Both the position numbers and the translations under genes were made by a program. A stretch of DNA of 39,633 bases, taken from Reclinomonas americana ATCC 50394 (taxonomy: Eukaryota). Positions 5,494-38,079 of this stretch are shown one piece after another. Location of the stretch: NCBI GenBank assembly GCA_048213135.1, contig PS015713.1:12334-51966 (forward strand). Reading direction: 5' to 3'. Each line of letters begins with the position of its first letter. Position 1 is the first letter of the stretch. Under the pieces are notes generated by a model, which saw nothing but the letters and a program-made list of their open reading frames with translations, made no database searches and had not been told where the DNA came from.

Positions 5494-8400
5494 ATGAGGT
5501 GTGTGTGTGTGTGCTGTCATGCGCATCCCTTCTCTTCCCTTCTTTCTCTCTCATGTATATTGTGCAGTCGCCAAGAGAGGAAGAAAGCATGGGAGATGGC
5601 AGAGGAGGGCAATGTGAAGGCACTGCGCGCGTTGGTGGCACGTGAGGGCGCACAAACTCTGCTCAAGAAAGAGGAGATGGCGGGCGATCGATCAGCATTT
5701 TACTATGCCACTGCCGGTGGCCATCTCTCAGTGTTGGAGTATCTGTGGGAGGAGAGTGGCGTGGGGCCACAACTTGCACGACTGGTCGATGTCAATGGCT
5801 GGACACCACTGATCGCCGCTGTCTTGCGAGGGCATCTGCAAGTGGTGGAGTGGTTACTGACCGATGAGCGACGATGTCCGCCGGAGACCGTACAGGCGGT
5901 GAGCAAGCCGAACCAGTGGACGGCACTGCATTTTGCTGCCTGTAATGGACACGAGGCCATTGCGCGCCTCCTTGCCACTCGCTTCCCCGACCTCATTCCC
6001 ATGGTCGACGACATGGGCAAGACGGCGGGTGAGTGGGCTTGCGACAATGGCAAGCAGCACGTGGCCGAGTTGCTCGGCAGCCCGTCCACGCCGCCATCGC
6101 AGCCACGCCAGGAATCTCCTCCCCCACCACCACTACCAGCAGCGCCAGCAGGTGTGTTCTCATTGTCGTCTTGAGCTGGTGGCTGATTCGTGTCCTTTTT
6201 CTCACTCACACTCTTTCTTTGTGTATTTCGTTTGCCTCTCGCCTGTGCAGAGCACGCAGTGCCGCCACGCCAGGTGAGAGACTGCGCTCTACTATCTTGC
6301 TTGCCTTTGTCTGTTTCTCATCTCGCACTGCTGTTGCGCAGGCGATTGAAGACTCGGCCTTTGTGGCACGCCAGTTTGCCGAAAAGGACGCACTCATCGC
6401 CCAACTCCAGCGCGATCTTGCCGCAGCACAGCAGGAGCGACAACAAGAGCGGCGTGAACACAAAGACATTGTGGCTCAAATGCAACACGCCAGCGCCGAG
6501 GATTATCGAATGATCGCCCAGTTGCAAGCCAACCTTGCCGCTGAACGGCAAAAAGTGCGTGCGATGGAGGGCCAGCTGCGCTCACTCTTCCACATGGACT
6601 TTCTCAGGTTTCTTTGGGACTTACTCTCTGCCTGTGTTCTTGCTAGAAGTCGCCTCACTCCTTTTGTTGAATGCACAGCGACCGCCGTCCCATCTTGATG
6701 CTTACAGAGGTCGTGCACGAAATCGTTCCACTGGCACTCGGCTCACTCCTGCAACAACTCGTCGCTGATTTCTTCCCTGCCGAATTCGACATTGAGCAAC
6801 TGTGCCTTCCGACTCCACCGCCAAGGTTCTGTCAAAGAGACTGCCTTGACTGTGCTGCGTCTCACGCACTCATTGTGCCTCACAGATACTGCCGAATGAC
6901 TCTGGACAAGCGTGGCAATATTCGCCTGCGCTCTGTCGAGTTATTCCCGTCCAACTACGAGTCCATTCGCGAATTCAAGCAGAGTGGAGTGACAACGGAC
7001 ATGGATGTGTCGCTGCTGTGCACGCTGCTGTTGTACTCAACTTTCGTTCCCGTTGCTGCTTGCCGTGATGAAGATCTGCTGGAGAGCGTCGTCCGTCTCG
7101 ATCCTGACACGAACGAAGACCGTGTTACTGTGCGACTTCTCGCTGACCACGCCAAGGTTTGCTCTCCGTTTGTGTCATCGTCGTCGGCAAGTGTTCTCAT
7201 TGTTCTCACTGGTCAATCCTCGTTGCAGATCCGAGCCGTGGAGAACTTGCGGGATGTTCGCCATCGTGTGTCTCACCTGGCACGTCTATCTGCACTCGAC
7301 GACGCAGAGTACGTGAGCGTCATGCGGCTGGTACGCGACTCACTCCGCACTCTGTTCCCCGACGGAGAGCACGAAAGTATCCGTCTCTTGTTCCAAGCAT
7401 ACGAGAGTTATGACTGCGCTTGCCACATACTGTCTTCATTCTCATCTCACTCTCCCGGAGCACAGATGTGTGTCGCATCAATGTGACTGCCGAGCTGGTG
7501 ACGGAGAGAGCAGCCAGATTTGCCATTCGCGCACCCGTTGTGCCGTTCTCTGACTTGACGCCTTCGAGACAGCTTGCCGTTGGTGTGATCATCTGCATCT
7601 CTGCATGAATGAGAAGAGAGGCTCATCGTGTCTGTGTTCCATTGCAGGTCAAAATGCTGTCTTCCATGCCACTCTCCGTCTCGGCGGTGTGTCGCAGACC
7701 GTGGCATACAAGCGATACCTGGTCAGGAGGCAAGCTCGAGATGTGCAATCGGCGGACTGGAAACGCATTCACGAGAGCTTTGAGAACGAACACTCCCTGC
7801 TGATGCAACTCGAGTGCGTTCATTGTTGCACTTGAATGCTTACCGTCTTTGCTCATGTGCCTTGCACGCACAGTCACCCACACATTGTGAAACTGATGGC
7901 CGTGTGCAACGACGACCCGAGTGGCCTCGGTCTTGTTCTTGAATATGTCGGCGACGAGGACGAAGAGGAGGGCTTTGCCGAGACGATGCACGACTTGGTG
8001 AAGGATGAACGGACGACGACTCCACACCTGCTCAGTCTGCTCGTGCAAGTGGCGTCGGCGGTGGTGCACATGCACTCGCGACGAGTGGTGCATCGTGATC
8101 TCAAGCCACACAGTTGCGTCTTGGGGAGACAACAAGAGAAGAGGATTATGAGCTGGTCATACAGCAAAGTGAGTTAACGAGAGGAAGAGGAAGAGGGAGA
8201 GCAAAGCAGGCGAGTGAGGTCAGTGTGCTCGTGCAAGTGGCATCGGCGCTGGTGCTCATCGGGATCTCAAAGCCGCAGAGTTTCGTATTCGAGAGGGTAA
8301 GTGAGAGAGGGCAATGAGATGCTGATGCAAAGTGAGTTAACGAGAGAAGCGCGTTGGTGCACATGCACTCGCGGTGAGTGGTGCGTCGTGATCTCAAGCA

Positions 8401-9459
8401 ATATTTTGGAGTGGGTTATGGGAGAGAGCGTGACTGCAAGAGAAGAGGATCATGTGATGCTGATGCACGAGAGTGGATGAGAGCGACAACAGTTGAAACA
8501 ACTTCGAAGTCATCGCTATACTTCCATTCTGATTGCTGACCCTGTTTCCTCTCTCATATTCACAGACATTCTCATCAGCGAGGACCGACAGGTGGCGAAG
8601 GTCTGCGACTTTGGGGAGGCCAAGATTCACGGCACCCTCGGCAAGATGCAGTCCATCCACGGCACAGCGGCGTATGCTGCACCCGAGCCCATGTTGGAGC
8701 TGGAGGTGTGGATGATATTCTATTCTCCTGTTGTGCGCAATGAGAGTGGTGATTCTTCCTTCACCACCCGCAGTACGATGAAAGGGCGGATGTGTATGGA
8801 TTGGGCTCGCTGCTTTGGTTCATCGCCACTCGTCAAGAACCGTTTACCGGGGTGGCACTTGCGGTGATCATGCGCCACATGCACGACGGCATTCCGCCGG
8901 CCGACCTTGACGATGCTGGTGTGCGGGCAAGGGTGCCGGAGGAGATTCGCAATCTGATTCGGCAGTGCTGGGTTGCGTGTTGGTGAAGAAGCTGGTGTGG
9001 CTGGGAGAGGTGGCTGCTCATTGCGCTCGCGTGTTATGCAGAGGCCGCAAGCAACACGCGTGTCGGCATCGTATGTGCTGGACGAATTGAGGCGCTTGAG
9101 CGAGGCGGCAGCACTGGCTGTGGGAGGATTTGGACCGACGGGCCGTTCACTGTGAGCGGGAGAGTGATGGGGCTGCTGCAAGCGAAGTCGGCGGTGCGCA
9201 TGGCTGCATCTTACACACTCGCTCATCTTCCTCGCTCACACGCTGTTGTTGATCATACAGGTGCGTGGATCAGCGAGACGCTCGTCGCCCCGCCGCCGAG
9301 CAGCTGGCAAGCGAGGCGCGCCACTTGGCGGCACTGTCGGCAGCGTCGAGCATGCGTGGTGTGCGCGTCACATGCCTCGTGTGGCCACCTAATGTTTCGC
9401 TTGTGTGCGCAAGAGGTGGTTCGGGCAGTGCCTGGTGTGTCGTGTGCTGGTCGACCTAG
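5494..9459 (+). CDS. Ankyrin - coiled coil - putative HEPN (DZIP3-like) - protein kinase, paralogue A
   Basis: Phase-consistent exons 5494-5498 (ATGAG), 5568-6151 (ankyrin), 6251-6273, 6342-6607 (coiled coil), 6679-6825, 6886-7156, 7229-7406, 7466-7582, 7648-7813, 7874-8112, 8566-8705, 8774-8971, then 9042 to either the stop at 9155 or a splice to 9261-9459. Motifs TPLIAA/TALHFAA, DMDVSLL, RHRVSH, VAYK, HRDLKPHN, DFG, GTAAYAAPE, DVYGLG. Confidence 0.88.
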
Positions 9460-9819: not shown

Positions 9820-9891
9820 GTATATAAGTTGTCTCTGCCGAAAAAAGTCTTGCTTATCATGCATCTCTCCATTCTCGTCGTTGCAAACTGT

Positions 9892-9900
<9 letters not shown>
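9820..9900 (-). repeat. Dispersed intergenic element (cagtttgc(a/g)acg...aatggagagatgcat core) next to a (CA)n tract
   Basis: The reverse complement matches segments at about 28910, 33110 and 33320. Confidence 0.7.
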
Positions 9901-9968
<68 letters not shown>

Positions 9969-10115: not shown

Positions 10116-13100
10116 ATGAGGCGAGTGTGTCTTTGTTATGTGCTTCTCTTCTCTTCCCTTCACTCTGACGATTGTTTCTTGCCTGCAGTCAACCACAGAG
10201 GAAGAAAGCATGGGAGATGGGAAAGGAAGGCGACGTGGATGCACTGCGCGAGTTGGTGACTCGTGAGGGCTCACAGCCTCTATTGACAGAGATGTATGCC
10301 TTTGGTGGTTCGGCATTCTACTATGCCGCTCGTTATGGGCAGATCTCAGTGTTGAGGTACTTGTGGGAGGAGAGTGGTGTCGGACCACCACTCGCACATG
10401 TTGTCGACAGAGATGGCTGGACGCCACTGATGGCGGCTGCTGAGAGTGGACATGAGCATGTAGTGGAGTGGCTGCTGGCCGATGAGCGACGGTGTCCGTG
10501 GCTGATGCGGGCAGTCGACAAGGTCTCACGGACGGCACTGCATTGGGCTGCCGTGAATGGCAACATGGACGTTGTGCGACTCCTCGCCACTCGCTATCCC
10601 GACCTCATTCCGCTGGTCGACAGCGAGGGCAAGACGGCGGCTCAGATGGCGCGCGATTTGGATCACCAGCAAGTGGTCGAGTTGCTCGACCGCTTCGCCA
10701 GCGGGGAAGAGCGACAGCAACAGCAAGCGGTGGCAGGTGTAGTTCATTGGCGTCTTGTGCAGATGGTTCTTCTCCACTCACAGCCCGTGTCCGTACCAAA
10801 CCCACAGTGTCTGCGCATCAGGTGAGAAACCTTGTCTCCTCGCATGGTGACTCCCGCTCTCAAGTGTTTACTTCCGCACAGGCGATTGACGACGCGCGCG
10901 AGCTCGCCGACCAGAAAGTAATTAACGCCCAGCTCCAGCACGATCTTGCCGCAGCGCAGCAGGAGCGACAGCAGCAGCAGCGAGAGTGGGATCTTCAGCG
11001 ACGAGAGCACGAAGACCTTGTTGCTCAACTGCAGCGAACCATCGCTGAGTGCAGTCACACTCTGGTGGAGCAGCAAGCGGAAGTGCAGCGTGCTCATGCT
11101 GCGGAGCAGCAGAGGACTGATCTCTTGCTAGAAGAACTCGCTGCTGAACGGCGAAGAGTGGTTGAGATGGAGGGCCAGCTGCGCGCACTCTTCCACATGG
11201 ACTTTCTCAGGTTTCTTTGGGACTTACTCTCTGCCTGTGTTCTTGCTAGAAGTCGCCTCACTCCTTTTGTTGAATGCACAGCGACCGCCGTCCCATCTAT
11301 ATGCTCACCGAAGTCGTGCACGAAATCATTCCCCTGGCACTCGGCTCCCTCCTGCAACATCTCATTGCTGATTTCTTCCCTGCCGAATTTGACATTGAGC
11401 AACTTTGTCTCCCAGCTCCACCGCCGAGGTGCTGAAATGGCGACTGCCTCTGATGTGCTGCGTCTCACGCGCTCATTCTGCCTCACAGATACTGTCGGAT
11501 GACCCTGGACAAGCGTGGCAATATTCGCATGCGCTCCGTCGAGCTTTTCCCGTCATGCTTCGAGGCGATCCGCGACTTCAAGCGGAGTGGCATGGCCACG
11601 GGCATGGACGTGTCGCTGCTGAGCACGCTGCTGTTGTACACAACTTTCGTTCCTGTCGCCGAGTGCCGAGATGAGGACCTGCTTGAGAGCGTCGTCCGTC
11701 TCGATCCTGTCACGAGCAAAGACCATGTTGCTGTGCGACTTCTCGCTGACCCCGCCAAGGTATGCTCTCCGCTTGTGCTATCATGGTCGACAGGGTGTTC
11801 TCATTGTTCTTCAATTTTCGTTGCAGATCCGAGCCGTGGAGAACCTACGAGATGTGCGCCATCGCGTGTCTCACCTGGCACGTCTATCTGCTCTCGACGA
11901 CGCGGAGTATGTGGGCGTCATGCGGCTGGTTCGTGACTCGCTCCACACTCTGTACCCCGACGGACGGCACGAGAGTATTCGTCTCTTGTTTGAAGCATAC
12001 GACAGTTGTGCCAGCACTTGCCCACTTGATGTCTTGTTTCCTTCTCATTGTCCTTAAGCACAGACGTGTGTCGCATCAATGTGACGGCCGAGCTGGTGAC
12101 GGAGAGAGCAGCCGGATTTGCCATTCGCGCCCCAATTGTGTCGTTCTCTGACTTGAAGACCTCGAGACAGCTTGCCGTCGGTATGGTCATCTGCGTATGC
12201 CTGCACCACTGCATGGATGTGAAGAGGCTCATCGCATCTACCTTTTGTCGCAGGTCAAAATGCTGTCTTCCATGCCACTCTCTGTCTCGGTGGCGAATCG
12301 CAGACCGTGGCGTACAAGCGATACTTTGTCAGTCCGCAGGCTCGCGATGCGCGAACGGGGGACTGGAATCGCGTTCACGCGTGCTTTGAAAACGAGCACT
12401 CTCTGTTGATGCAACTTGAGTTGCGAGCTTTCTTGCACTTGAATGCTGCCTCCTGTCACTTATGCGCCTCCCCTCCACAGTCACCCGCACATTGTAAAAC
12501 TGATGGCAGTGAGCAATGACGACCCGAGTGGTCTCGGTCTCGTTCTTGAATACGTCGGTGGCGAGGATGGAAGAGGGATTGCCGAGACACTGTACGACCT
12601 GGTGAAGGATGAGCGGACGACGACTCCACACCTGCTCCGCCTGCTCGTGCAAGTGGCGTCGGCGGTGGTGCACATGCACTCGCGACGAGTGGTGCATCGT
12701 GATCTCAAGCCTCAGAGTTGCGTCTTGGGGAGACAACAAGAGAAGAGGATTATGAGATGCTGATACAGCAAAGTGAGTTAATGAGAGGAAGAGGGAGAGT
12801 CAAGCAGGCGAGTGCGATCAGTGCTCGTACAAGTGGTATCTGCGGTTGTGCACAAGCACTCGCGTCAAATGCATCAACAGGATCTCCAGCCAAGATTGTT
12901 GCTTTGGAGAGAGTGATGGGAGACAGCAAGAGAAGATGTTGATACAAAGTTAGTTAATGAGAGAAAGAGGGAGAGACAACCAGACGAGTGCGAACAGTGC
13001 TCGTACAAGTTGTATCGGTGGTTGTGCACATGCACTCGCACGTCGAATGCGACAACGGGATCTCCAGCTATAGAGTTTTGTTTTCGAGAGAGTGATGGGA

Positions 13101-14240
13101 GAGAACGAGACTGCAACAGAAGAGGATTACGAGATGCCTATGCACAAGAGCGGATGAGAGACACAACAGTGGAAAAAAACTTCAAAGTCAATCACTGTTC
13201 TCTCACACTGCTGACCCTCTTCCCTCTGCACGGTCACAGACATTCTCATCAGCGAAGACCGACTCGTGGCCAAGGTGTGCGACTTTGGTGAGGCCAAGAT
13301 TCACGGCACTCTCGGCAAGATGCAGTCGAACCACGGTACGGCGGCATACGCTGCGCCGGAGGCCATGTTGGATCAGGAGGTGCACTGATGACATTCTCCT
13401 TTCTTGCTATGCGGAATGAGAATGGCGTTCTCTCATGTTCTTTCCTTCGCCACTCGCAGTACGATGAAAGGGCAGATGTGTATGGACTTGGCTCGCTGCT
13501 CTGGTTCATCGCCACTCGCCAGGAACCGTTCAGTGGAGTGACACTACAGGCGATTCTGCAATCTATGCGGGCCGGTGTTCTCCCCGCCAATCTTGACGAT
13601 GAGGCTGTGCGGGCAGGAGTGCCGGAGGATATTCGCAATCTGATTCGGCAGTGCTGGGTTGCGTGTTGGTGAAGTAGCTGGTGTGGCTGGGAGAGGTGGC
13701 TGCTCATTGCGCTCGCGTGTGATGCAGAGGCCGCAAGCCACTCGCGTGTCGGCATCGTATGTGCTGGACGAATTGAGGCGCTTGAGCGAGGCGGCAGCAC
13801 TGGCTGTGGGAGGAGTTGGACCGGCGGGGCCATCACAGTGAGTTGGAGAGTGACGGGCTGCTGCAAGCGAAGTCGGCGGTGCGCATGACTGCATGATAAA
13901 GAATCGCTCATTTTCCTCGCTCACACGCTGTTGTTGATCATACAGGTGCGTGGATCAGCGAGACGCTCGTCGGCCCACCGCCGAGCAGCTGGCAAATGGG
14001 GCGCGCCACTTGGCGGCACTGTCGGCAGCGTCGAGCATGCATGGTGTGCGCGTCAGATGCCTCGTGCGGCCACCTCATGTTTCGCTTGCGTGCGCAAGAG
14101 GTGGTTCGGGCAGTGCCTGGTGTGTCGTGTACTGGTCGACCTGGTCATTGGTGAACTTCTGGATATCACTCGTACCTGGCGCTGCAGTGTGTGGAAGGGT
14201 GTATGAGGAGGAGGAGTGTCAAAGGAGGATGCTTCTGTGA
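10116..14240 (+). CDS. Ankyrin - coiled coil - putative HEPN - protein kinase, paralogue B
   Basis: Same exon/phase structure as paralogue A: 10116-10120 (GC donor), 10189-10736, 10784-10821, 10882-11210, 11282-11428, 11489-11759, 11827-12004, 12064-12180, 12254-12419, 12481-12716, 13240-13379, 13460-13657, then 13728 to either the stop at 13841 or a splice to 13946 onward. Motifs RHRVSH, VAYK, HRDLKPQN, DFG, GTAAYAAPE. Confidence 0.88.
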
Positions 14241-14563: not shown

Positions 14564-15419
14564 ATGCAAGCCGACGGAGACGACCTCTCCTCCTACTCTG
14601 CTGCACAAGTGAGCACGTACACCCCCCACTCACCTCACCACTCTCTCTCTCTCTCCACACTCATTCATACTCTCTCTTCTTCTCTCAAGGAAACTCGCGC
14701 AGAGTGCGCGCGAGTGGCGCAATCAGTGCTCTCGTCTGTGAGTCCGCTCTTTGGACCTGGAGGGCGCAAGGTGTTGTGGCAGTCGAGTGTGCAAAGGTGC
14801 GGGTGAGAGAGAGAGAAGGGGGAGGGTGAGGGAGAGAGAGGGAGAGAGGGAAGGAGAGAGAGAGGGAAAGGAGATGGGAGGAATGAGAGCGAGAGAGAGA
14901 GAGGAGGGGTGAGAGAGGAGAGTGAGCGTGGTGTACGACAGTCCGCGTTGGCCGTACGAGACGAGAGAAGAGGTATTAGAGAGAGTGCGTGATACGAGAC
15001 AAGTGAGTTATGAGAGGAAGGAGGGAGAGNNNNNNNNNNNNNNNNNNNNNNNNNNNNNNNNNNNNNNNNNNNNNNNNNNNNNNNNNNNNNNNNNNNNNNN
15101 NNNNNNNNNNNNNNNNNNNNNNNNNNNNNNNNNNNNNNNNNNNNNNNNNNNNNNNNNNNNNNNNNNNNNNNNNNNNNNNNNNNNNNNNNNNNNNNNNNNN
15201 NNNNNNNNNNNNNNNNNNNNNNNNNNNNNNNNNNNNNNNNNNNNNNNNNNNNNNNNNNNNNNNNNNNNNNNNNNNNNNNNNNNNNNNNNNNNNNNNNNNN
15301 NNNNNNNNNNNNNNNNNNNNNNNNNNNNNNNNNNNNNNNNNNNNNNNNNNNNNNNNNNNNNNNNNNNNNNNNNNNNNNNNNNNNNNNNNNNNNNNNNNNN
15401 NNNNGTACGACGTACGTGA

Positions 15420-15467: not shown

Positions 15468-16548
15468 GAAGGGAGGCTCGGCTTCCTCTCATTCTCTGTT
15501 GTGCGAGTCTCCTCCGTTTCCCTCTGGGCAACTGTCAGCAGGGTGTCCTTGGATCACAGTATCTCCTTTCTCTCTCCCTCTCCCTCTCTCTCGTTCCTCC
15601 CTGCTCCCTTCCTATTCCTCCCTTCTCTCCTCCTCTTACCCCTTCTCCCCTTCATTGACCGCCCCCCCTTTCAGCACCCCCACCTCCCCCGGCGTCAGCA
15701 AACTGTGCGACTCGGCCTTCTCACTCCTCTCCGTTGCGTCCCCTCCACTCTCCCTCTTTCACTCACCCTCCTCACCACCTTCTGCTCTCCCCGCAGGTCG
15801 CTCCTGCACGCCACCCCTTTGCTGCCGTCTTCCGTCGCCTGGCGCAGACACAGTTCACCACAGACGGCGATGGTTGGCAACCCCCTTTTTTCACGAAGAG
15901 ATCCTCGCTCATTCCATGGCTGCAGGGACGACCTTTGCTGTTCTGCTTGCCACCGCCCTCGTGGACGCCGGACTGGCGCTGTGTGACAGTGCGCACCTGC
16001 ATCCGTGCGTGGTTACGCGACTGCTTGCTTCGTGTCGAGTGGACGCTGTGCGCGTGTGGGAGGCTGCTGCCGTTCCGCTGGATGCGGCGAATGTGGAGCA
16101 CCTGTGTCGCAGTCAGTTGATGAGCAAGTTGTCGCCGGAGGTGGCGCAAGTTGCGTGGCCATGGATCTATTATGTCGTGTCTCAATTGTCTTCTCTCAAC
16201 GCGGACGCGCCAGGAGGCTGCCGTGGCGTGCGCTACGATGGTAGCGTGGCATGGTTTATCGTCGGCATCGTCGGCGGCACCCGTTGGTGTCGCCATGCGT
16301 GTGCGACACCGCACGCACTGTCACTCGTTTGCCGGGGTCGCGTTTGCGCAGGCTGTTGCGTGGAATTCTCTGCAAACCCGAAGTAGCTGCTATCTTTTCT
16401 CCTCTCCCCTGTCACCTCAGGTTTCCCATCACTTGGTATTCTCTCTGTCTCTCTGTCTCTCTCTCTCTCTCTCCCCTCTCTCCTCTCGAAGTGATCTCTC
16501 GCTTTGTTTCGGCGGTCCGCTCTGTTTCCTCTCTCTCTCACTTGGCAT

Positions 16549-16585
<37 letters not shown>

Positions 16586-16601
16586 GTCTTCGTTCGTCGT
16601 C

Positions 16602-16657
<56 letters not shown>

Positions 16658-17110
16658 TTGCCTGGCCACCTTCCNNNNNNNNNNNNNNNNNNNNNNNNNN
16701 NNNNNNNNNNNNNNNNNNNNNNNNNNNNNNNNNNNNNNNNNNNNNNNNNNNNNNNNNNNNNNNNNNNNNNNNNNNNNNNNNNNNNNNNNNNNNNNNNNNN
16801 NNNNNNNNNNNNNNNNNNNNNNNNNNNNNNNNNNNNNNNNNNNNNNNNNNNNNNNNNNNNNNNNNNNNNNNNNNNNNNNNNNNNNNNNNNNNNNNNNNNN
16901 NNNNNNNNNNNNNNNNNNNNNNNNNNNNNNNNNNNNNNNNNNNNNNNNNNNNNNNNNNNNNNNNNNNNNNNNNNNNNNNNGTTCTCTCTCTCTCTCGTCG
17001 TCTCTCTCTCTCTCTCTCTCTCTCCTCTTCTCTCTCTCGTCTTCGTTCGTCGGTCGTCTCTGTTTCTCTCTCTCTCTCTCTCACGTGGCATTCTCTCTCT
17101 CTCTCGCTTG

Positions 17111-17154
<44 letters not shown>

Positions 17155-19738
17155 CCCTCCTTGCATCGTCGGTAGTTGACCTTTGTCTCCTCGACGTTCG
17201 CTTCTTGGTTCTTTCCCTCATGTGGTTGGCGCACTCCCTGACTCTCTTTCTCCTCTTTCTCATTCGTGCACAACTCGTGCTGCTCTGGCCTCCACCGACT
17301 TCCTTTTTTGTAGCTCCATGCTGTCACTCTTCTGTTATGCCTGCTGGGTTCTCTTTTATGTCTCCCTGTCTCCTCACACCCTCCCCCCTCTTTCCACAGC
17401 CCGCCGACATCACCGAGGACGACACATCCCCTCCCCGCCTCAATCAACGCATCCTCCTGCTGGCCGACCCACAAGCGCTCCGTCTCGAGGAGCAAGGCCG
17501 CGTCAAATTCCGCACGGCGGCCGAGCGAGTGGCTGTCGTCAACCAGGAGCGCGATGCGCTGCAAAGGCATGTGCTTGCTGAAGTTATCCAAGGAGTAGTC
17601 TCTTCTCTCATACGCGGCTGTAGGCAAGTGGACGCTGTTGTGCGCACCGGCGCCGACGTGGTGCTGGCGGTCGGCACGCCGGCTCCGTCAGTGGTGCGCG
17701 ACCTCGCTCACCGCGGCGTGCTGGTTCTCAGCGGCCTCTGTGTCGACGATGTGCGTCGCGCCGAGGCTGCGCTCGGCGGCCGCCTCGTGCACTCGCTGTC
17801 TGTAAGCGGGGACGTGGTGTGTGGTGTGGCCGGCAGAGTGCACTGCGAGGTGGCGGGCGAGTCGGATCGGTGGACGGTGCTGGAGGCTGCCGAGGGACGT
17901 GCGCAGGCCGGGCAGCTGATTGTCGAGGCGCCGACGTTGGAGGAGGCCGTGCATTTGGCGCAGTTGCGGGGGAGGGGGAAGGAAGGGGAAGGGAGAAGGG
18001 AGAAGGGGAAAGGGGAAAGGGAGATGAGGGAAGGAGATAATGTATTGTTTGTCGACCTGCTGCGCGAGTGATATCGCTGAAACTTCCGGTCTCGTTCTCT
18101 CTCTCATTCGTTCTGTCTTTCTGTCTGTTTCGTATCTAGTCGCTCTCTCTCCCTCTTGTGTGTTTGCGTCTCTCTGCATGTCTGATTCCTGTTTGCCTCT
18201 CTGCCGGATCGTTTGCCTATCTGTCTCTCGCTCTCCTTCTCTCTTCTCACCTCTCTTTCTCTCTCTCTTCTCTCTTCTCTCTTCTCTCTTCTCTCTCTCT
18301 CTCTTCCCTTCCCTTCCCTTCTCTCCTCCCCCTCACAGATGCATCCAGCGCTGCGTTCGCAGCACCACCCGCTGCCTGCAGCGCTCTTCCTCCATCCTAC
18401 CCGGCGGCCTTGCTGCAGAAGCCCTGCTGGTGACCCGCCTGAAATCGTTCGCCAGTCTCCCACCCATGCTCGCCATCTCCTCTCCTGTCTCACACTCTTC
18501 ATCACAGCAATCACGAACAGCACGGAGGCCACGCGAGAGTCCTCGACATGTTCATTCGTTGCATCGAAAAGTGCGCACGATGCCTGCTACACAATGGCGG
18601 ACACAGCCAGCACCCCAGCAGCGATGTGTGGGAGCAGCTGGTCGCTGCGTGGCGGTCTGCAGATGCGCCGGCGAGCGAGTGGTGTGTGGTGGACTCATTT
18701 GGCGGCAAGTCACTGGCCGTCGGCGAGGCCGGCAGTCTCACGTGCGATTCGTTGGAGTGTCGAGTGGCTGGTGAGTCGAAACAGCGATTCTGTCGCCAGC
18801 AGTGATATCTTGTCTCCTCGCTGGATCCTTCTCCCTCAGTTCCTCCTCCTCGGCCTTCTTCTTCCTCCCACGCCTAGCTGTGCCATTATTCATCCTCGTC
18901 TTCTGTCATCCAGTTGTACTCTTCCACGTGCGCCCCTCTCATCCGAATTGCAGTCATCTGAATCGCCAGTTTTGCTGCTCTCCAATGTTTTCTCACTCAC
19001 TCTCTCCCCGCCCACTCCATCTTTCTTGCACGCGACCTCATCGCCAATCGACTGCTCTGTTTGTTGGTCAGTTGACTCTCGTCCCCCGACGCCTTCGGTC
19101 TCTCTCTTGTGTGTGTCGTTCTTGTTACCGCTTTCTTCACCATGCTGGTCTCCTACCTCTTCCTCTCTCGTCTTTCCCTGTCCTTCTCTCTCCACCTTCC
19201 ACATCCCATCTTTCTTGTCCTCCCGTCTCGTCGACTGCTCTCTTTGATGCACCTCGTCTTCTGTCATTACGTCCCTCTCACACCTCCCCCTTCCCCCTCC
19301 CTTCCCCCCTCTCGCAGCCCTGTCCTCCGCCATCGACACCGCCTCCCTCCTCCTCCGCACCGACTTTCTCGTCCGCTCCGTCGACCTCCGCGGCACCACC
19401 ACCATTGCCTCTATGCCACCCCCTCAAGCCACCGACCCAGCCCCGCAAGAGGAGGACGAGGAGGACGCGCTGGCGGCAGGAACCTACCGACGCGCCTCCT
19501 CCTCCTCCTCCTCGTCTACCTTCAAGTCGCCCTTCTCTTCGAGTGCATGGAGCGAGCGCGAAAAACAAAAACACGAGCGCAAGGAGCGCAAGTTCTACTC
19601 ACAGGTGTGTGCATCACCAAGTCTCTCACTATCTCTGTCTCCCCGCCTCTCATCATTGCGCAGCCGGAACGCGAACGCCGCGCGCGCTTCGAATCTCGAC
19701 TGGAGGTCGATCCGCGACGCCGCGCCGGGGACGACTGA
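14564..19738 (+). CDS. Divergent group II chaperonin-like protein (CCT/TCP-1 family; possibly BBS6/10/12-like)
   Basis: Spliced exons (14564-14608, 14690-14796, from 15675, 15797-15872, from 15926, about 17400-17962, from 18339, 18508-18770, 19318-19604, 19664-19738) give the chaperonin motifs in order: SPLFGPGGRK, HPFAAVF..AQTQ, DGD|GTT, LPGGLAAE, LLHNGG, DSLECRVA|ALSSAIDTASLLLRTD. Two assembly gaps lie inside it. Confidence 0.82.
15030..15403. other. Assembly gap (N run)
   Basis: N characters in the sequence. Confidence 1.
16675..16980. other. Assembly gap (N run)
   Basis: N characters; similar CT-rich sequence on both sides. Confidence 1.
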
Positions 19739-23491: not shown

Positions 23492-23615
23492 CCTCTCCAT
23501 CCAGCATCTCGCGCAAGCTGTGGCACAAAAAGGGGAAAAGGGGATGTACAATGCAGTTGCTCACTGTCTCCTTGCTCTGTCTCTCACTCTCTCGCGCTCT
23601 CTCTCTCTCTCTTGC

Positions 23616-23647
<32 letters not shown>

Positions 23648-23877
23648 GCTCCGCCGCGCGTCGAACGAAACGAACGAACGAACGAAACGAACGAACGTAA
23701 CGACGACGTACGACGTACGTACGTACGTACGTACGTACTACNNNNNNNNNNNNNNNNNNNNTAAGGAAGAAGAACGTACGTCGTCGTTACGGTACCGAAC
23801 GGAAAGGGAAGGTAGTACGTACTACGTACGACGTAGTCGTCTCTACTCTCCTTCTCTCTCTCTCTCTCTCTCTCTCG

Positions 23878-23924
<47 letters not shown>

Positions 23925-24245
23925 CAAGCATCCCGCGCAGGCTGTGGCACAAAAAGGGAAAAAAGAAGAAGAAAAGCAGCTGCTCAGTCTCCTTGCTCTG
24001 TCTCTCTCTCTCTCTCTCTCTCACACTCACTCACTCACTCACTCACTCACTCACGCCCTCTATATCACATCTCCCGCGCAATCTCCACCCAAGGGGTTTC
24101 CCATGATTGTCACGCAACTTCTCTTCACCGCCTTCTTCTTCTTCTTCTTCATCTCCTGCTTCCCGCCTTCTTCCTCCTCTTGCTCATCCTCCTCCCCATC
24201 AACCACACACGGCAATTGTCTCTGCACTGCTCGCTTCTGCTGTTG
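23170..24245. repeat. Local duplicated segments on both sides of a 20-N gap (23742-23761)
   Basis: ctccccatcaaccacacacgg(t/c)aattgtctctgcactgctcgcttctgct at ~23271 and ~24192; agcatc(t/c)cgcgca..ctgtggcacaaaaaggg at ~23503 and ~23927. Confidence 0.8.
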
Positions 24246-24860: not shown

Positions 24861-24942
24861 TTGCGTCACAATGTCTGCATGCGACCGCAAACATGGCTTC
24901 ACTAGCCAAGCAACTCAGACACCAATCTTTCTCCTCCCCTCT

Positions 24943-27900
24943 TCACTGCAACTCCATTGTGAATCCACCCAGCTTCTCTCGCAAATCACCCATCACCGCT
25001 CGAGCAGTCGCCGCCGTCGGTCGTCCGTCTTCATCGTACAGCGACATGCATCTGCTGCAGAGATGAGACGCAATCCGCAATATCACAGACTCCGTTTGCT
25101 ACTCTCACACGCAACTGCACTCCCAGTCGCAGCATTCCGCGTGCCACATCTGCTGGCCACTCACCCGCCGTGGCATCGCTCTTCTTCACCGCATCCACGG
25201 CATCGAGCGCGCGCTCCCACCGCGGCGCACGATCCACCAGCACATGCGCATCGCACCCCGTCAGCAGTTGCAGCAGAATCAACCCCACGGCGTGCATGTC
25301 CATCGACTTGCGGATATTGCCGGAGCGCAAGAAGAGCGGATCAATGTAATGTGGGGTGCCAGCATGAGAAGATGTGCGTCGGTGGGTCTGTAGCACAAGA
25401 AGGCAAGAGAGACGACGGTGAGACGCAATAATCTCGTGAGAAGCAGTAAGCGTTTCTCCCGCATTGCCGCTCACCTCCCCGGCATCAAAGATGCGCGCAA
25501 TACCGAAATCCGCGAGACGCGGCTCGCATCGATGGTCGAGGAGAATGTTGGAGGGTTTGAGATCGCGGTGAATAATGTCGTTCTAAAATCAAGCAGCAGG
25601 AGGTGAGAAGGGATGACGAATGTGAATGAATGATGGCTATCTCAATGAAGAGAAGCAAGAGCAGGAGAGAAAGACGAGAACGATTGGCAAGGAACGAAGA
25701 GTTCAACAGAATGTCATGCTCGGTGGGAGGATGCGCAAGCAACCCACTGGCGAGAATGCAACAGTGATGCGAGAATGGTCATGAAGTGAATCGCACCCCG
25801 CACAACTCGAGAATGGGAGTGATAAGTCCAGGGTGATCAAAACAATTCAGAGGAGAAAGAATAGCCTCCCAAGAAGACAGGACGGAAGAAGAGCCACGAT
25901 GCGGTGATCAAACCAATCAACAACACCACAGAGGAGACAGATAGTCTCCGAAGAAGACACAACAGAAAAGAAGTGCCACGCTCACCTGATGCAAAAAGCA
26001 CACGCCCTCGACAATGCCGAGGCCAATCTGCACACGTTCAAGCACCGTCAACGGCAACATGCCGTCTGCGCGCTTCAGCAATCGCACTTCCAGATCGTGA
26101 CCACTGTGACAGGAGAGCACAGAGAGACGAATGAGAGTCAGAGTGACCTGATCAGACAAGCGTTGTCATTCTATGATGCTCATTCTCACTTCTTGCGTCC
26201 TCTCATCAAATGCACCGCTAGCCCACTCCACACGCAAGTCTCACCCTCGTCAACACCGACCTGCTCGTTTCCCTTCCTCCGATCGCCTTCCTTTCTTTCC
26301 GCTAAGCCTGTCACTCTCTCTCTCCCACACACACACAATCGCACTTCCAATCAGCTCGTTTCCGATCGCCTACTTCACTTTCCGCTCAGCCTGTCACTCT
26401 CTCTCTCTCTCTCCCACACACACAATCCGCACTTCTAATCAATCCGTTTCCCCCTCCTCTGATCGCCTTCTTCTCTTTCCGCTCAGCCTGCCTCTCTCCT
26501 TCTCTCTCTCTCTCTCTCAGGCAAATCTCCAGCCACACAGTCTTCCATTCGGGCTTTGCCCTCCCGAGTCCTCACAAGCACCATCGCCTCGCCTTCACGG
26601 TTTTTCGTGCACTTCTCTCACACCTCACGATCTTCCATTTCAGTCTCAGTCTCACTCTTTCCCTCGTTAACATCCACTCACCGCATGGCTCGATACACCA
26701 GGCAACGCTCCCACACGATATTGTCATCGTCCACAAGCGTTGAGTATCCGAGCAGTGGAACAAGTCGACGGTGGCGTAGTTGACCAATGGTGTTCAACTG
26801 GGAGCGTGTGAGAACCGAGAGAGACTCTTGCTTTTCTCCCTTCTCCATCATCCCTCACCTCCGCATCATACGACTCCACCGCCCACGGTGCACTGCTGTC
26901 CAGTCGTTTGATCGCCACATCTTCGTCGATGAGATAGCAGAGATACACCTCACCCTGACCACCCTCGCCGGCCTTCAGTCTCGACGAGAAGTACTCGGTG
27001 GCGGTCACCACGTCGCTCCAGGCGTACTCACGAAGGCGATTGGGCATGGAGGCTGCATTCATGTCGGTAAAATGAGTGTGCGATAGAACGTGTGTGCAGG
27101 GGAAATGGTCGTGGATCGCGCTCACCATGGCGAGATTCGAGCTCACGAGCGAGAACGGCAGATCGCTGACGCTCGGCGGCAAGTAACTGCTCCAACTCCT
27201 CACGTGCACGGGCGTGTTGCTCCAGATCGCACTGCAGCTGTGCGACTCGATGCTGCGCTTCCGCATGAGCTCCTTGCCATTGTGAAACGACCAGTTGCAG
27301 CTGGGCATTAACTTGCTGCCACTCCGCATTGTCCTGCTGCAGCACAGCATTCTTCTGCTGTCCCTCAGCATTGTCGTGCTGCAGCTCCAAGTTCGCTCGT
27401 CGTAGTTGTGCGATCTCTTGCTGAGTCTCAGCAGTGACTCGCTGCAGTAAGCCATCCTTCTGTTGCTCTTCGATCTTGCGTTGTTCCACGTCCGTGACAG
27501 CACGGTGCAGTTGAGCCACAATGTCTTCGTGCTCACGTCGCTGTCGGTCCCACTTCCGCTGCTGCTGCTCTCGCTCCTGCTGCGCTGCGGCGAGATCGCA
27601 CTGCAGTTGGGCAATTTGAGTGTCCTTGCCGACGAGCTGCAGCTGGCGTGCCCCAGCGCCGAGTTCGTCAATTGTCTACACAGATGCAGAACACGCGTGT
27701 GGGAGTCATTGGTTGCACGCATGTAGAGATGCAAGAATACCACAATCGATATGACACTGCTTCTCACCTGTACCTGGGATACTGTCACTGCATGGTTTCA
27801 AGGCGACAAACAAAGGATACACACATGGGAATGTGTGTGGGGAGAACACAATCAACAGACAACAATGAGTTCAAACCTTGTGCTGATCGGCGGGGAGAAC

Positions 27901-28556
27901 GAATTCGAAGTAGTTGAATTCGGCGTGCTTCTGCTTCTTGATCCAACGCCAGGCCGTCGAGCAAATCGGCCACTTCGTCCTTCTTGTTTTCGCGTGCCAA
28001 CAGAGCCGCCGTCTTTCTCTTCTTCGCTTCCATTGGAATGAGTTCTGGGAAGCGAGTGGCAAGAAGATGGACTATAGCTTTGTGGCCTTTCTCGGCAGCC
28101 AAATGCAGCGCAGATGACCGGTCATCATTGGTGACACACACCATCTCCGGCGGACACCGTCGCTCATCGGCCAGCAACCACTCCACCACTCGCAGGTGCC
28201 CATTGAAGGCCGCCGTCATGAGTGGCGTCCAGCGAGTCTTGGTGCTAATCTGTGCGAGCTGCGGCCCAACGCCACTCTCCTCCCACAAGAACTCCAACAC
28301 AGAGAGATGGCGATTCGCAGCAGCGTTGTAAAACGCCGAACAGCCAAACTCATCCATCTCCCCCTCCTGCAGCAGGGTCTCTGCACCCTCGCGTGCCACC
28401 AAAGCACGCAGTGCCTCCACGTCGCCGAGTTGCGCCAGCTCCCATGCTTTCTTCCGCAGCTGCTGACTGCCACTCCGAGCACAATTGTGAGGGAGCAAGT
28501 GAGGAGAAGAGACGAGAAAGTGAGACAACACACACATACACACACACACACCTCAT
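24943..28556 (-). CDS. Ankyrin - coiled coil - IRAK/Pelle/RLK-like protein kinase, paralogue C
   Basis: Exons 28556-28552 (ATGAG), 28466-27877, 27787-27768, 27675-27126, 27052-26859, 26797-26682, 26103-25986, 25582-25475, 25387-25116, ~25051-24943, all phase-compatible. Motifs [84 protein letters not shown]. Confidence 0.9.
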
Positions 28557-33400: not shown

Positions 33401-33588
33401 GTACTGTGTTGCACACAAGCAATCACACACAGCGTGTGTGCGACACCTCTTTCGCCTTCGATTAGTGGCCATCCGTCACGCCTCCTGTGCCATCGGCCGC
33501 GCATTCCGAAGGCAACCAACGATTCAGCGATGCGCTGTGTCGATCCCTTTCCAACAACGACACATAAACGCTCTTTCTCCTCCCCTCT

Positions 33589-36500: not shown

Positions 36501-38079
36501 CCCACAGATACTCCAACACGGAAAGATGTCCACGTTGAGCTGCGAAGTGAAAAGCTGAGCCGCCGTCAAACCTGTTCATCTCCTCCTTTTTCAACAAGGT
36601 CTGTGGGCCTGCACGCGCAACCAATTCGCGCAGAGAACTGACGTCGCCTGAAATCCCCATCTCCCACGCAATCTTCCTCTGCGGCTGAGGAGGATGCACT
36701 GTGACAAGCACAAAAATCGCAGTTACAAAATGCTGTAGCACATCAATGGCCGAATTTACAACTGCTAAAAGTGACATACCGGCAAGTCGAGGTGGTGGCT
36801 GAAGAGGAAGAGACCGTGGCTGCTGCTGTTGTTGACGTGGGAGCGCTTCCTGCTCCGCTGCGAGGCGGTCGAGCAACTCGGCCACGTCCTGCTTGCCTTC
36901 GGCTCGAGCCCACTGAGCCGCCGTGTTACCCTTCTTGTCAACCATTGGTATGAGGTCGGGAAAGTGAGTTGCGAGAAGTCGCATGATGGCTTCGTGGCCG
37001 TTCACGGCTGCCTGATGAAGCGCAGTCCGCTGGTCTACATTGTCGACTGCCCGAACCAAGTCCGGCCAGCATCGTCGCTCATCGACAAGCAACCATTCCA
37101 CAACTGCCAAGTGACCCCAGGCGGCAGCAATCATCAGTGGAGTCTCGCCAAAATCATTGACCATGCGAATGATCTGTGAGCCAACACTACTCTCCTCCCA
37201 CAGGTACTCCAAGACAGACAGGTGGCCACCAAGAGTAGCACAGTCGAAGGCTGAGTAGCCAGACGCGCGAGTCTCTTCTTTCTTGAGCAGAGTTTGTGCA
37301 CCCTCACGCGCCACCAACTCGCGAAGTGCCTCCAGATCGCCTTCCGCTGCCAGCTCCCATGCCTTCTTCCGATGTGGCAGTGGGGGAGCACTGCCAACCA
37401 CTGCAGAAGAGAAGGTAATCACCGAATCCATTGGTAGAGTGCTACAGACTGCCGTAAAACGAACTCACCTACTGGTGGAGGAAATCCGGGTGGCGGCGGT
37501 GGTAGTTGTGCAGCGACGAGGTCAAGCAAGTCGGCCACCTGTTGCTTACCATGGTCGTGGGCTACTTGGGCGGCTGTCCTGCCAACATTATCGACCATGC
37601 GAACGAGATCGGGAAAGTGATCGGCAAGGAGCCGCACGACAGCTTCGTGGCCATTCATGGCAGAAAAATGCAACGCAGTGACACGATTAGCGTTGGAGAC
37701 CGCCCGCACCATATCCGGCGGACATCGTCGCTCATCGCCCAGCAACCACTCCACCACTTGAAGCTGACCATTCCAGGCAGCAATCATCAGCGGAGTCTCA
37801 CCGAAGTCGTTGACCATTTGTGCGAGTTGTGGTCCAACACCACTCTCCTCCCACAAGTACTCCAACACAGGTAGGTGGCCATTAAAGGCGGCATAGTCAA
37901 AGGCCGTGTTTCCATGCGCACCAGTCTCCTCTCTCGTCAGCAGCGTGTGCGCATTCTCCCGCGCCACCAACTCGCGCAGCGCATGTAAGTCAGCACTCGC
38001 CGCCATTTCCCATGCCTTCTTCCTCTGCAGCTGTGGTGGAGCACTGCGACAATCGAAGAGGCACACGCACACATACACA

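What the first reader, a model, noticed from the sequence alone, without database searches (positions are those of the whole stretch)
5568..38043. Six ankyrin modules vary at predicted binding-surface positions on a conserved framework
Seen: the framework is nearly constant (LE(Y/F)[30 protein letters not shown]) while first-helix and hairpin residues differ: YYATAG/YYAARY/YNAAAN/DYAAFN/DCATLG/HFAAQR; IAAVLR/MAAAES/MTAAFN/MIAAWN/MIAAAW; HFAACN/HWAAVN/HLAAEK/HFSAMN/HQAAVN/HFAASD. Known: these are the ankyrin positions that form the concave binding face and are randomised in DARPin libraries. In contrast, the C and D kinases are almost identical. Inference: diversifying selection on ligand recognition.
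Basis: partly seen in the sequence, partly recalled or inferred. Interest (0 to 1): 0.75.

Follow-up and report, generated by a model that had tools for sequence, protein, structure and literature searches.

The report
Variable-faced ankyrin cassettes on kinase genes
Six copies of a compact ankyrin-repeat domain, each a single exon at the front of four neighbouring kinase genes of a eukaryote, differ from one another almost only on the groove face that such domains use for binding, but whether selection actively drove those changes cannot be settled from six old copies.

Summary
Exactly six ~166-residue ankyrin modules exist. Each is one exon and forms N-cap + 3 repeats + C-cap, the size and fold of an N3C DARPin. 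Variation is concentrated at positions 2, 3, 5, 13, 14 and 33, and also at 10. The core, the convex face and the unusual loops are conserved.

The inference is only partly supported. In my GY94 fits, PAML-style tests are significant (M2a/M1a p=0.0025; M8/M7 p=1.5e-6). The 18 a-priori concave codons give omega 1.45-1.95, against 0.26 for the rest and 0.31 for the exposed convex positions. With among-site rate variation the signal fades (p=0.52, 0.18, 0.06). In simulations without positive selection, 9 of 35 replicates reach the observed M2a LRT. Recombination between modules is also detectable.

So omega is at least about 1 on the concave face, but above 1 is not shown.

The contrast with the "identical kinases" mostly reflects age. 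C/D kinase dS is 0.13-0.21 and ANK dS is 0.83-0.93, so the genes are mosaics.

Gene D carries three in-frame ANK cassette exons in series.

The parts
5568..6151 (+). ANK cassette exon of gene A (module 5578-6075; N-cap + 3 repeats + C-cap, then a Pro-rich linker)
   Evidence: Pfam Ank_2 E 9e-23. AF2 pLDDT 95.9. Foldseek match to N3C DARPins at TM 0.80. Splice sites gcag|T and CAG|gtgtgt; length 584 nt = 2 mod 3.
10189..10736 (+). ANK cassette exon of gene B (module 10199-10687)
   Evidence: Pfam Ank_2 E 3e-23. Splice sites; length 548 nt = 2 mod 3.
27877..28466 (-). ANK cassette exon of gene C (module 27959-28456)
   Evidence: Pfam Ank_2 E 4e-18. Splice sites; length 590 nt = 2 mod 3.
37469..38043 (-). 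First ANK cassette exon of gene D (D1; module 37524-38024)
   Evidence: Pfam Ank_2 E 4e-22. Splice sites; length 575 nt = 2 mod 3.
36780..37400 (-). Second ANK cassette exon of gene D (D2; module 36871-37371)
   Evidence: Pfam Ank_2 E 2e-21. With the upstream acceptor ctgcag|TG the exon is 621 nt = 0 mod 3 and is phase 1 at both ends. It also keeps the ancestral phase-2 acceptor ggcag|T.
36144..36698 (-). Third ANK cassette exon of gene D (D3; module 36178-36678)
   Evidence: Pfam Ank_2 E 1e-18. Length 555 nt = 0 mod 3, phase 1 at both ends. It shares a conversion-like patch with D2 at codons 79-87.
6336..6620 (+). Coiled-coil segment of gene A. Counterparts lie in B at about 10876-11298(+), in C within 27031-27675(-) and in D within 35608-36018(-).
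   Evidence: Heptad-rich Q/E/R/L sequence read. Only weak generic coiled-coil Pfam matches. A/B alignment. A 110-nt patch is 86% identical between B and C.
6671..7483 (+). Middle domain of unknown family in gene A, with the counterpart in B at 11274-12081. It contains an Rx4H string, RHRVSH, that is identical in A and B. The open frame probably reads through small introns.
   Evidence: No Pfam match. No relatives found. The Atlas feature search puts it nearest to clusters carrying HEPN_DZIP3/DUF4559 at 0.94-0.95, which is a lead only. The AF2 model was unusable. A/B comparison.
7554..9152 (+). Protein-kinase exons of gene A (VAYK, HRDLKP, DFG, APE present). The counterpart in B is at 12223-13835(+).
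   Evidence: Pfam Pkinase / PK_Tyr_Ser-Thr on the ORF pieces. A/B tblastn.
24946..27100 (-). Protein-kinase exons of gene C (GxGxx[16 protein letters not shown] present). The counterpart in D is at 33592-35650(-).
   Evidence: Pfam Pkinase E 1e-16. The best solved-structure sequence matches are BRI1, RIPK3, SOBIR1, IRAK4 and BAK1, over a short stretch only. C/D comparison.

Best explanation
The window holds four neighbouring genes of one lineage-restricted family in a eukaryote. They have GT-AG introns, and the only outside relative found is one EST-derived protein.

Each gene begins with a self-contained ankyrin domain encoded by a single exon. A coiled coil follows, and then a protein kinase. 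The kinases are of two different types: A/B, which also carry an extra middle domain, and C/D, which look RLK/IRAK-like.

The ankyrin domain is the partner-recognition module. Its hydrophobic core, its convex face and its unusual inter-repeat loops are held by purifying selection. The groove face (hairpin tips 2, 3, 5, 33 and helix-1 positions 10, 13, 14) has diverged between copies at or slightly above the neutral rate, so each copy presents a different binding surface on the same scaffold. The bound partner would then be coupled to kinase signalling through the coiled coil.

The recognition exon has its own history. It is much older than the kinase body it sits on, small patches have been exchanged between modules, and in gene D two extra in-frame copies were inserted in series.

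Shown: the fold, the register, where the variation lies, purifying selection on the rest, the mosaic ages, and the splice-phase arithmetic.

Inferred: that the groove binds partners, that the changes were adaptive, that ANK and kinase lie in one transcript, and that D1-D3 are co-spliced.
For: Fold and register:
- Pfam Ank_2 in 6 of 6 modules.
- AF2 pLDDT 95.9.
- Foldseek end-to-end match to N3C DARPins, TM 0.80.
- Residue-level HMMER alignment to DARPin chains puts the variable residues on x13/x14 and x2/x3/x5.

Location of the variation:
- The a-priori 18 columns give omega 1.76 against 0.26 for the rest (LRT 115). The convex exposed set gives 0.31.
- This holds over 4 topologies and 3 codon-frequency models, with omega 1.45-1.95.
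- The partition+G model (lnL -2517.4) fits far better than the best site-mixture model with the same number of parameters (M1a+G, -2533.6).
- All 8 sites with M8 posterior above 0.95 are in the a-priori set: seven at positions 13/14 and one at position 33.
- Of 26 columns with at least 4 different residues, 16 are in the concave set, 3 are at position 10, 4 are convex and 3 lie elsewhere.

The surface looks used:
- 37% of residues at the internal concave columns are aromatic or aliphatic, against 1% at the convex exposed columns.
- Hairpin lengths vary in repeats 1 and 3, also in the outside relative P0102. P0102 has yet other residues at the variable positions.

The copies are functional:
- All six frames are open and omega for the rest is 0.2-0.26.
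- 41 of 56 invariant-residue columns carry synonymous differences.

Mosaic genes and recombination signal.

Splice phases: exon lengths are 2 mod 3 for the first-position exons A, B, C and D1, and 0 mod 3 for the inserted D2 and D3.

Literature: DARPin and ANK-library randomised positions and the concave binding face come from passages of PMC3602593 and PMC4308713.
Against: Omega above 1 is not robust:
- M2a+G vs M1a+G gives p=0.52.
- M8+G vs M8a+G gives p=0.18.
- Partition+G gives p=0.06 for 18 sites and 0.22 for 26 sites.
- With a free synonymous rate for the concave set, omega is 1.31, p=0.47.
- 9 of 35 null simulations reach the observed M2a LRT.

Other weaknesses:
- These positions are the highest-entropy positions of ankyrin repeats in general (PMC4308713 passage), so any diverged ANK paralogues would differ most there.
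- No ligand, transcript or population data are available.
- Only six sequences were compared, with dS 0.55-1.2 and a poorly resolved tree (bootstrap 47-53).
- Recombination violates the single-tree model.
- The codon-model code is my own and was validated only for M0 against IQ-TREE, where the lnL was identical.
Confidence: 0.6

Rival explanations
1. Relaxed constraint only. The groove positions are simply the least constrained surface positions of any ankyrin fold and have drifted neutrally since old duplications. The functionally important surface is the conserved one (convex face and the WEESGVG / DERRC / FPDLIPMV loops), for example for docking on the coiled coil or kinase.
For: - Omega = 1 at the concave sites is not rejected once rate variation or a separate synonymous rate is allowed.
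- M1a+G (13 parameters, lnL -2533.6) fits better than M8 (-2539.7) or M3 with 3 classes (-2538.2).
- The null simulations reproduce the PAML signal.
- The convex exposed positions and the loops are unusually conserved (omega 0.31; invariant WEES, DERRC).
- The same positions are high-entropy in ANK repeats generally.
Against: - Every point estimate is above 1 (1.3-1.95). Under the best-fitting partition+G model, omega is 1.74 with p=0.06.
- The groove carries many exposed W/F/Y/M/L residues (37%, against 1% on the convex face), which is unusual for a surface nobody uses.
- Hairpin indels are retained in frame.
- Direct evidence for synonymous-rate heterogeneity is weak (LRT 1.98, p=0.08 on the invariant-residue columns).
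Confidence: 0.32
2. Some or all copies are decaying pseudogenes or assembly duplicates, and the variation is degeneration.
For: - No transcript evidence is available.
- B has in-frame stops and a frame change where A's middle-domain frame is open.
- Degenerate extra copies of the HRD-containing exon lie in the A and B introns.
- The assembly has four N gaps.
Against: - All six ANK frames are open over 163-167 codons, with omega 0.2-0.26 outside the groove.
- Splice sites and phases are kept.
- The copies differ by about 30% in nucleotides, so they are not assembly duplicates.
- The stops in B fall in stretches that look like small introns.
Confidence: 0.05

Closest known systems
Designed ankyrin repeat proteins (DARPins, N3C format) and the ANK-N5C library
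   Same: Same size and topology: N-cap, three internal repeats and C-cap, with TM 0.80 over about 164 columns. The naturally variable positions coincide with those randomised in the libraries: 2, 3, 5, 13, 14 and 33, plus 10 in ANK-N5C.
   Different: These are natural paralogues, not a designed library. The loops after helix 2 are not GADVNA; they are longer, family-specific and contain short extra helices (residues 25-29, 63-67 and 102-105 in the model). TPLH is replaced by SAF(Y/D/H) in repeat 1 and by TPL(I/M) in repeat 2.
Hypervariable ANK/TPR/WD repeat domains of fungal NOD-like receptors (Dyrka et al. 2014, PMC4986451; passages read)
   Same: Variation or positive selection at ANK positions mapping to the concave face (inner helix and hairpin), interpreted as diversification of recognition. 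Recombination between repeat units also occurs.
   Different: There is no NACHT/NB-ARC domain here. The unit of variation is a whole five-unit domain in one exon, not near-identical tandem 33-residue repeats with repeat-number polymorphism. The output domain is a kinase. Omega above 1 is not robustly shown here.
N-terminal-ANK kinases (ILK, TNNI3K, plant ANK-kinases) and RNase L (ANK + pseudokinase + KEN/HEPN)
   Same: An ankyrin sensor or adaptor domain precedes a kinase-fold domain. The table of PMC3710099 lists KEN domains fused to S/T/Y kinase with ankyrin repeats, and DZIP3-type HEPN domains fused to ankyrin in expanded animal families.
   Different: No sequence relationship to these was shown. 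The ILK, TNNI3K and plant examples are recalled and were not tested. A coiled coil lies between ANK and kinase. The possible HEPN-like domain of A/B lies before the kinase, not after it, and rests only on an Atlas feature score and an Rx4H string.

Membership tests
Ankyrin repeat domain (Pfam clan Ank; Ank_2 PF12796) | Profile match above the curated cutoff | tested here: met
   6 of 6 modules score 66-83 bits against a cutoff of 27.3.
Ankyrin repeat domain (Pfam clan Ank; Ank_2 PF12796) | Stacked helix-turn-helix plus hairpin repeats forming a curved solenoid | tested here: met
   The AF2 model has pLDDT 95.9 and paired helices for five units. Foldseek finds at least 500 ANK/DARPin matches, the top one with TM 0.80. 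This is a predicted structure, not a solved one.
N3C DARPin-like capped domain (resemblance, not membership) | N-cap, three internal repeats and C-cap aligned end to end | tested here: met
   HMMER aligns query residues 6-166 to DARPin residues 20-165, caps included. Foldseek aligns 163-168 columns.
Recognition domains under diversifying selection (fungal-NLR ANK type) | Variable sites concentrated on the concave binding face | tested here: met
   Partition LRT 115-138. 0 of 100,000 permutations reach the observed value. 8 of 8 sites with M8 posterior above 0.95 are in the a-priori set.
Recognition domains under diversifying selection (fungal-NLR ANK type) | dN/dS significantly above 1 at those sites | tested here: inconclusive
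   Significant without rate variation (p 0.0025 to 1.5e-6). Not significant with it (p 0.06-0.52). 9 of 35 null simulations reach the observed LRT.
Recognition domains under diversifying selection (fungal-NLR ANK type) | NOD (NACHT/NB-ARC) domain in the same protein | tested here: not met
   No such Pfam match among the 206 ORFs scanned across the window (112, 94).
ANK-kinase fusion proteins | ANK domain and kinase domain in one polypeptide | tested here: inconclusive
   In 4 of 4 genes an ANK exon is followed on the same strand, within 1.4-2.3 kb, by coiled-coil and kinase exons, and every ANK exon ends in a phase-1 donor. No transcript or full-length relative was available.
RLK/Pelle/IRAK-RIPK kinases (genes C and D) | Closest sequence similarity to that group over the kinase domain | tested here: inconclusive
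   The top solved-structure hits are BRI1, RIPK3, SOBIR1, IRAK4 and BAK1, but the aligned stretch is only about 30-40 residues around HRD-DFG.
HEPN (DZIP3-like) domain in genes A and B | Profile or fold match, plus the Rx4-6H motif | tested here: inconclusive
   An Rx4H string (RHRVSH) is present and identical in A and B. Atlas feature hits at 0.94-0.95 go to clusters in which 11-38% of members carry PF18738. There is no Pfam match and no relatives were found, and the AF2 model at pLDDT 36.9 is unusable.

The most novel reading that the evidence does not exclude
A protist uses single-exon, DARPin-sized ankyrin domains as exchangeable recognition cassettes. The same cassette type sits on two unrelated kinase bodies. 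It escapes the gene conversion that homogenises those bodies, swaps surface patches between copies, and can be stacked three in a row in frame. Together these would form an innate-immunity-like or self/non-self receptor-kinase repertoire, with an RNase-L-like ANK / HEPN-like / kinase logic in genes A and B.
Probability: 0.15. Interest if true: 0.75.

Novelty: new variant of a known kind. Interest (0 to 1): 0.45.

Why it matters
If the groove differences reflect different partners, this is a natural counterpart of a DARPin library. It would be one rigid scaffold with surface-only diversification, wired to kinase output, in a lineage where almost nothing is annotated: among 5.8 billion clustered proteins only one EST-derived relative was found.

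The case also teaches a method. At this divergence and sample size, the standard M1a/M2a and M7/M8 tests report positive selection in most null data sets that have rate heterogeneity (25 of 35). Such claims for old paralogues therefore need models with synonymous-rate variation.

Tried and rejected
Searches for relatives:
- The all-against-library phmmer search with module A was swamped by giant multi-ANK proteins. Only P0102 (154 aa, 68-70% identical) is a family member.
- The word-indexed searches gave only generic ANK proteins ('longer', 5 hits at 28-35% identity) and P0102 alone ('near').
- No codon data outside the window could be obtained.

Structure mapping:
- Coordinates of the predicted model were not available to scripts. 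I therefore could not compute solvent accessibility, and used the canonical register, checked.

Pairwise and site-model runs:
- Pairwise dN/dS is reported for 14 of 15 pairs. The YN00 routine failed on D2-D3.
- M3 with 4 classes ran to a degenerate omega of 54 and a tree length of 16, so I did not use it.

Middle domain of A/B:
- No Pfam match, even at E up to 5.
- No relatives in the 'longer' search.
- The single-sequence AF2 model had pLDDT 36.9, so I made no fold search with it.

Other points:
- I considered whether M7 of the module is the start codon and rejected it. RKKAWE upstream is invariant or nearly so, and position 7 is Leu in C and D2.
- I considered mutually exclusive splicing of D1/D2/D3 as the only mode and judged it less likely. 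D3 has only a phase-1 acceptor, and D2 and D3 are 0 mod 3. Optional skipping remains possible.
- Complex prediction was not used, since no candidate partner exists.
- The first exon with the start codon was not found for any of the four genes.

Full report
WHAT IS THERE

The window is eukaryotic DNA with GT-AG introns and four N gaps totalling 991 bases. A regular-expression scan of the six-frame translation and a stop-to-stop reading found six ankyrin (ANK) modules of 163-167 residues:
- A 5578-6075(+)
- B 10199-10687(+)
- C 27959-28456(-)
- D1 37524-38024(-)
- D2 36871-37371(-)
- D3 36178-36678(-)

tblastn with module A finds exactly these six. The next hit has E=0.10. All six match Pfam Ank_2 at E 1e-18 to 1e-23. 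They are 57-70% identical in protein and 68-73% in DNA.

FOLD AND REGISTER

An AlphaFold2 model of module A, built with the six-sequence alignment, has mean pLDDT 95.9. Foldseek aligns it end to end (163-168 columns, TM 0.80) with N3C DARPins such as 7p3i_B, 5fin, 2xee and 1mj0.

HMMER alignments to DARPin chains give the residue register. Repeat 1 SAF-Y-Y-A-T-A-G-GH aligns to TPLHLAA-x13-x14-GH, repeat 2 D-V-N-G-W-TPL aligns to D-x2-x3-G-x5-TPL, and so on, with both caps aligned.

Each module is therefore a complete capped domain: N-cap, three repeats and C-cap. Two features are unusual. Family-specific loops follow helix 2 ([27 protein letters not shown]) and contain short extra helices. TPLH is also replaced in repeats 1 and 2.

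WHERE THE VARIATION LIES

I took as an a-priori set the positions randomised in DARPins: 2, 3, 5, 13, 14 and 33. The numbers 2, 3, 5, 13 and 14 can be read from the residue numbers given in PMC3602593 (passages). Position 33 is supported by the ANK-N5C library of PMC4308713, which used 2, 3, 5, 10, 13 and 33 (passages). The full six-position DARPin list as such is recalled.

In repeats 1-3 this gives 18 columns. Compared with the columns outside the 26-column concave set:

| Measure | 18 concave columns | Other columns |
|---|---|---|
| Mean distinct residues | 3.72 | 1.91 |
| Mean pairwise identity | 0.25 | 0.69 |

None of 100,000 random 18-column sets reaches the observed mean.

Of the 26 columns with at least four different residues, 16 are in the concave set including caps, 3 are at position 10, 4 are convex and 3 lie elsewhere.

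The exposed convex positions (18, 21, 25, 26) are conserved, with identity 0.62. At the internal concave columns, 37% of residues are aromatic or aliphatic, against 1% at the convex ones.

The one outside relative is P0102, from an EST-derived EukProt record. It is 64-70% identical to each module, carries yet other residues at the variable positions, and has a four-residue longer hairpin in repeat 3.

SELECTION TESTS

PAML and HyPhy are not installed, so I wrote a GY94 likelihood program. Its M0 result (lnL -2605.762, omega 0.34) equals IQ-TREE's. That is its only external validation. Site posteriors are NEB, not BEB.

Pairwise NG86 values for 14 of 15 pairs are dN 0.23-0.31, dS 0.55-1.22 and omega 0.20-0.49. 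The D2-D3 pair failed.

Site models without rate variation:
- M1a lnL -2549.39 and M2a -2543.40. The LRT is 11.97 (p=0.0025), with omega 3.0 for 9% of sites.
- M7 -2553.18, M8 -2539.74 and M8a -2547.93. M8 vs M7 gives p=1.5e-6 and M8 vs M8a gives p=2.6e-5, with omega 2.57 for 12% of sites.
- All 8 sites with M8 posterior above 0.95 are in the a-priori set: seven at positions 13/14 and one at position 33.
- Of the 21 sites with posterior above 0.5, 15 are in the set, 2 are at position 10, 2 are at convex position 18, and 2 lie elsewhere.

Fixed partition:
- Omega is 1.76 for the 18 columns and 0.26 for the rest (LRT 115). Omega = 1 is rejected at p=0.002.
- The convex set has omega 0.31.
- Over four topologies and three codon-frequency models, omega is 1.45-1.95 and p is 0.002-0.028.

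WHY THAT IS NOT ENOUGH

- A gamma distribution of whole-codon rates improves the fit strongly (M1a -2549.4 to -2533.6). It also removes the signal. M2a+G vs M1a+G gives LRT 1.31, p=0.52. M8+G vs M8a+G gives LRT 0.87, p=0.18.
- With its own synonymous-rate multiplier, the concave set gives omega 1.31, p=0.47.
- I simulated 35 alignments under the fitted M1a+G null, which has no omega above 1, and analysed them with plain M1a/M2a. Twenty-five of 35 exceed the 5% cutoff and 9 of 35 exceed the observed 11.97.
- Free-omega models without gamma fit worse (M3 with three classes, -2538.2).
- Direct evidence for synonymous-rate heterogeneity is weak: on the 56 invariant-residue columns the LRT is 1.98, p=0.08. 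The two descriptions therefore cannot be told apart with these data.
- Recombination is detectable. A PHI-like statistic is reached by 3 of 1000 permutations. D2 and D3 share a run of 16 polymorphic sites at codons 79-87 (p=0.0015, uncorrected for 15 pairs). That run includes positions 13/14 of repeat 2.

The best-fitting model overall is the structural partition with gamma. Its lnL is -2517.4 for the 18-column set and -2509.8 with the caps. It gives omega 1.74 (p=0.06) and 1.32 (p=0.22), against 0.19-0.20 for the rest.

Conclusion: the groove evolves about six to nine times faster than everything else (omega 1.74 vs 0.20 with rate variation, 1.76 vs 0.26 without), at or slightly above the neutral rate. 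Adaptive diversification is plausible but not demonstrated.

THE KINASE CONTRAST IS A MOSAIC, NOT A CONTROL

Self-comparison shows the following:
- C vs D is 91.5% identical over 24926-26363 / 33572-35027, introns included.
- The next 0.9 kb is about 73% identical.
- The ANK exons are about 70% identical, and their flanking introns cannot be aligned.

Divergence by region:

| Region | dS | dN |
|---|---|---|
| C/D kinase C-lobe exons | 0.13-0.21 | 0.012-0.022 |
| C/D N-lobe exons | about 0.5 | 0.12-0.14 |
| ANK, C vs D1-D3 | 0.83-0.93 | 0.27-0.31 |
| A/B gene body | 0.35 (patches 0.10-0.45) | 0.12 |
| ANK, A vs B | 0.55 | 0.27 |

For A vs B the jump to 90-95% identity occurs inside the coiled-coil exon, near position 6520.

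The A/B and C/D kinases are of different types and do not align by blastn. Even so, a 110-nt piece of the coiled-coil exon is 86% identical between B and C.

The ANK cassette and the gene bodies therefore have different histories. Either conversion or recent duplication acted on the 3' parts, or the cassettes were exchanged, or both. The 'almost identical kinases' say little about selection.

GENE ARCHITECTURE

Each ANK exon is followed on the same strand by three kinds of sequence:
- a Q/E/R-rich coiled-coil exon;
- in A and B only, a middle domain with no Pfam match;
- kinase exons matching Pfam Pkinase.

The catalytic motifs are present: VAYK/VAIK, HRDLKP and DFG. For C/D the best solved-structure sequence matches are BRI1, RIPK3, SOBIR1, IRAK4 and BAK1, but only over a short stretch. 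A/B give no clear group.

The A/B middle domain has an Rx4H string (RHRVSH) that is identical in A and B. Atlas feature scores of 0.94-0.95 link it to clusters partly annotated HEPN_DZIP3/DUF4559. This is a lead only, because Pfam, a relatives search and a fold prediction all failed. PMC3710099 (passages and table rows) lists HEPN domains fused to ankyrin repeats and, for KEN, to kinases.

CASSETTE ARITHMETIC

All six ANK exons end in a phase-1 donor (G|GT). A, B, C and D1 start at a conserved gcag|T acceptor in phase 2, and their lengths are 2 mod 3 (584, 548, 590 and 575 nt).

D3 has a one-base insertion that makes its acceptor phase 1. D2 has an extra upstream phase-1 acceptor. Both exons are then 0 mod 3 (621 and 555 nt). 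This is what is needed for D2 and D3 to be spliced in frame after D1, or skipped. Gene D therefore probably encodes up to three ANK domains in series. This is inference from sequence, and no transcript was seen.

COMPARISON AND NOVELTY

The domain works like a natural DARPin, with a fixed scaffold and a variable groove. Its pattern resembles that reported for the ANK repeats of fungal NOD-like receptors, where positively selected sites map to the concave face (PMC4986451, passages).

It is not a member of that group. It has no NOD domain, the unit of variation differs, and the output domain is a kinase.

One point lowers the surprise. These positions are the highest-entropy positions of ankyrin repeats in general, so diverged ANK paralogues are expected to differ most there.

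Three things are less ordinary:
- Everything else is tightly conserved at dS 0.55-1.2, including the exposed convex face.
- The whole domain is packaged in a single exon that is shared by two kinase types.
- Gene D carries an in-frame triple cassette.

A literature search for ankyrin + kinase + diversifying selection + concave + gene family returned 4 papers, none describing such a family (listing only).

I rate this a new variant of a known kind, of moderate interest.

WHAT STAYED OPEN

- The organism is not identified.
- The first exons are not found.
- No transcripts were available.
- No codon data exist beyond six sequences.
- Exposure was not computed from coordinates.

Noticed in passing
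2806-5082 (+): A long open frame with an mTERF domain (Pfam E 2e-21) lies just upstream of gene A. A second mTERF-matching piece is at 2232-2834. The region 2-4 kb has a strong strand skew (AT skew -0.51) and internal ~67-70% direct repeats at 3018-3839.
   Followed up: no
8038-8475 (+) and 12642-13110 (+): Degenerate, partly frame-shifted extra copies of the kinase exon piece that carries VQVASAVVHMHSRRVVHRDLKP lie just downstream of the real exon, in both A and B. They look like tandem pseudo-exon duplications inside the intron.
   Followed up: partly
10927-11036 (+) vs 27503-27612 (-): A 110-nt piece at the start of the coiled-coil exon is 86% identical between genes B and C, although their kinases are of different types. 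This suggests sequence exchange between the two gene types.
   Followed up: partly
6671-7483 (+); 11274-12081 (+): The middle domain of A and B has no known family. It has an Rx4H string (RHRVSH) and Atlas feature similarity (0.94-0.95) to clusters partly annotated HEPN_DZIP3/DUF4559. There is no HMM, relative or fold support.
   Followed up: partly
19770-20447 (-): An open frame with weak WD40-type matches (Pfam E 1e-4 to 1.5e-5, below the curated cutoffs), between the two gene pairs.
   Followed up: no
1327-1997, 14805-14923, 16439-17163, 18217-18334, 23560-23925: Related low-complexity repeats, mostly 72-94% identical to one another, several of them next to the N gaps at 1454-1743, 15030-15404, 16675-16980 and 23742-23761.
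   Followed up: no
36871-37371 vs 36178-36678 (-), codons 79-87 of the alignment: D2 and D3 share an identical stretch (PLMIAAAWG) covering the groove positions 13/14 of repeat 2. The run of 16 shared polymorphic sites has permutation p=0.0015 before correction for 15 pairs. It is a possible conversion of a binding-surface patch between adjacent cassettes.
   Followed up: partly
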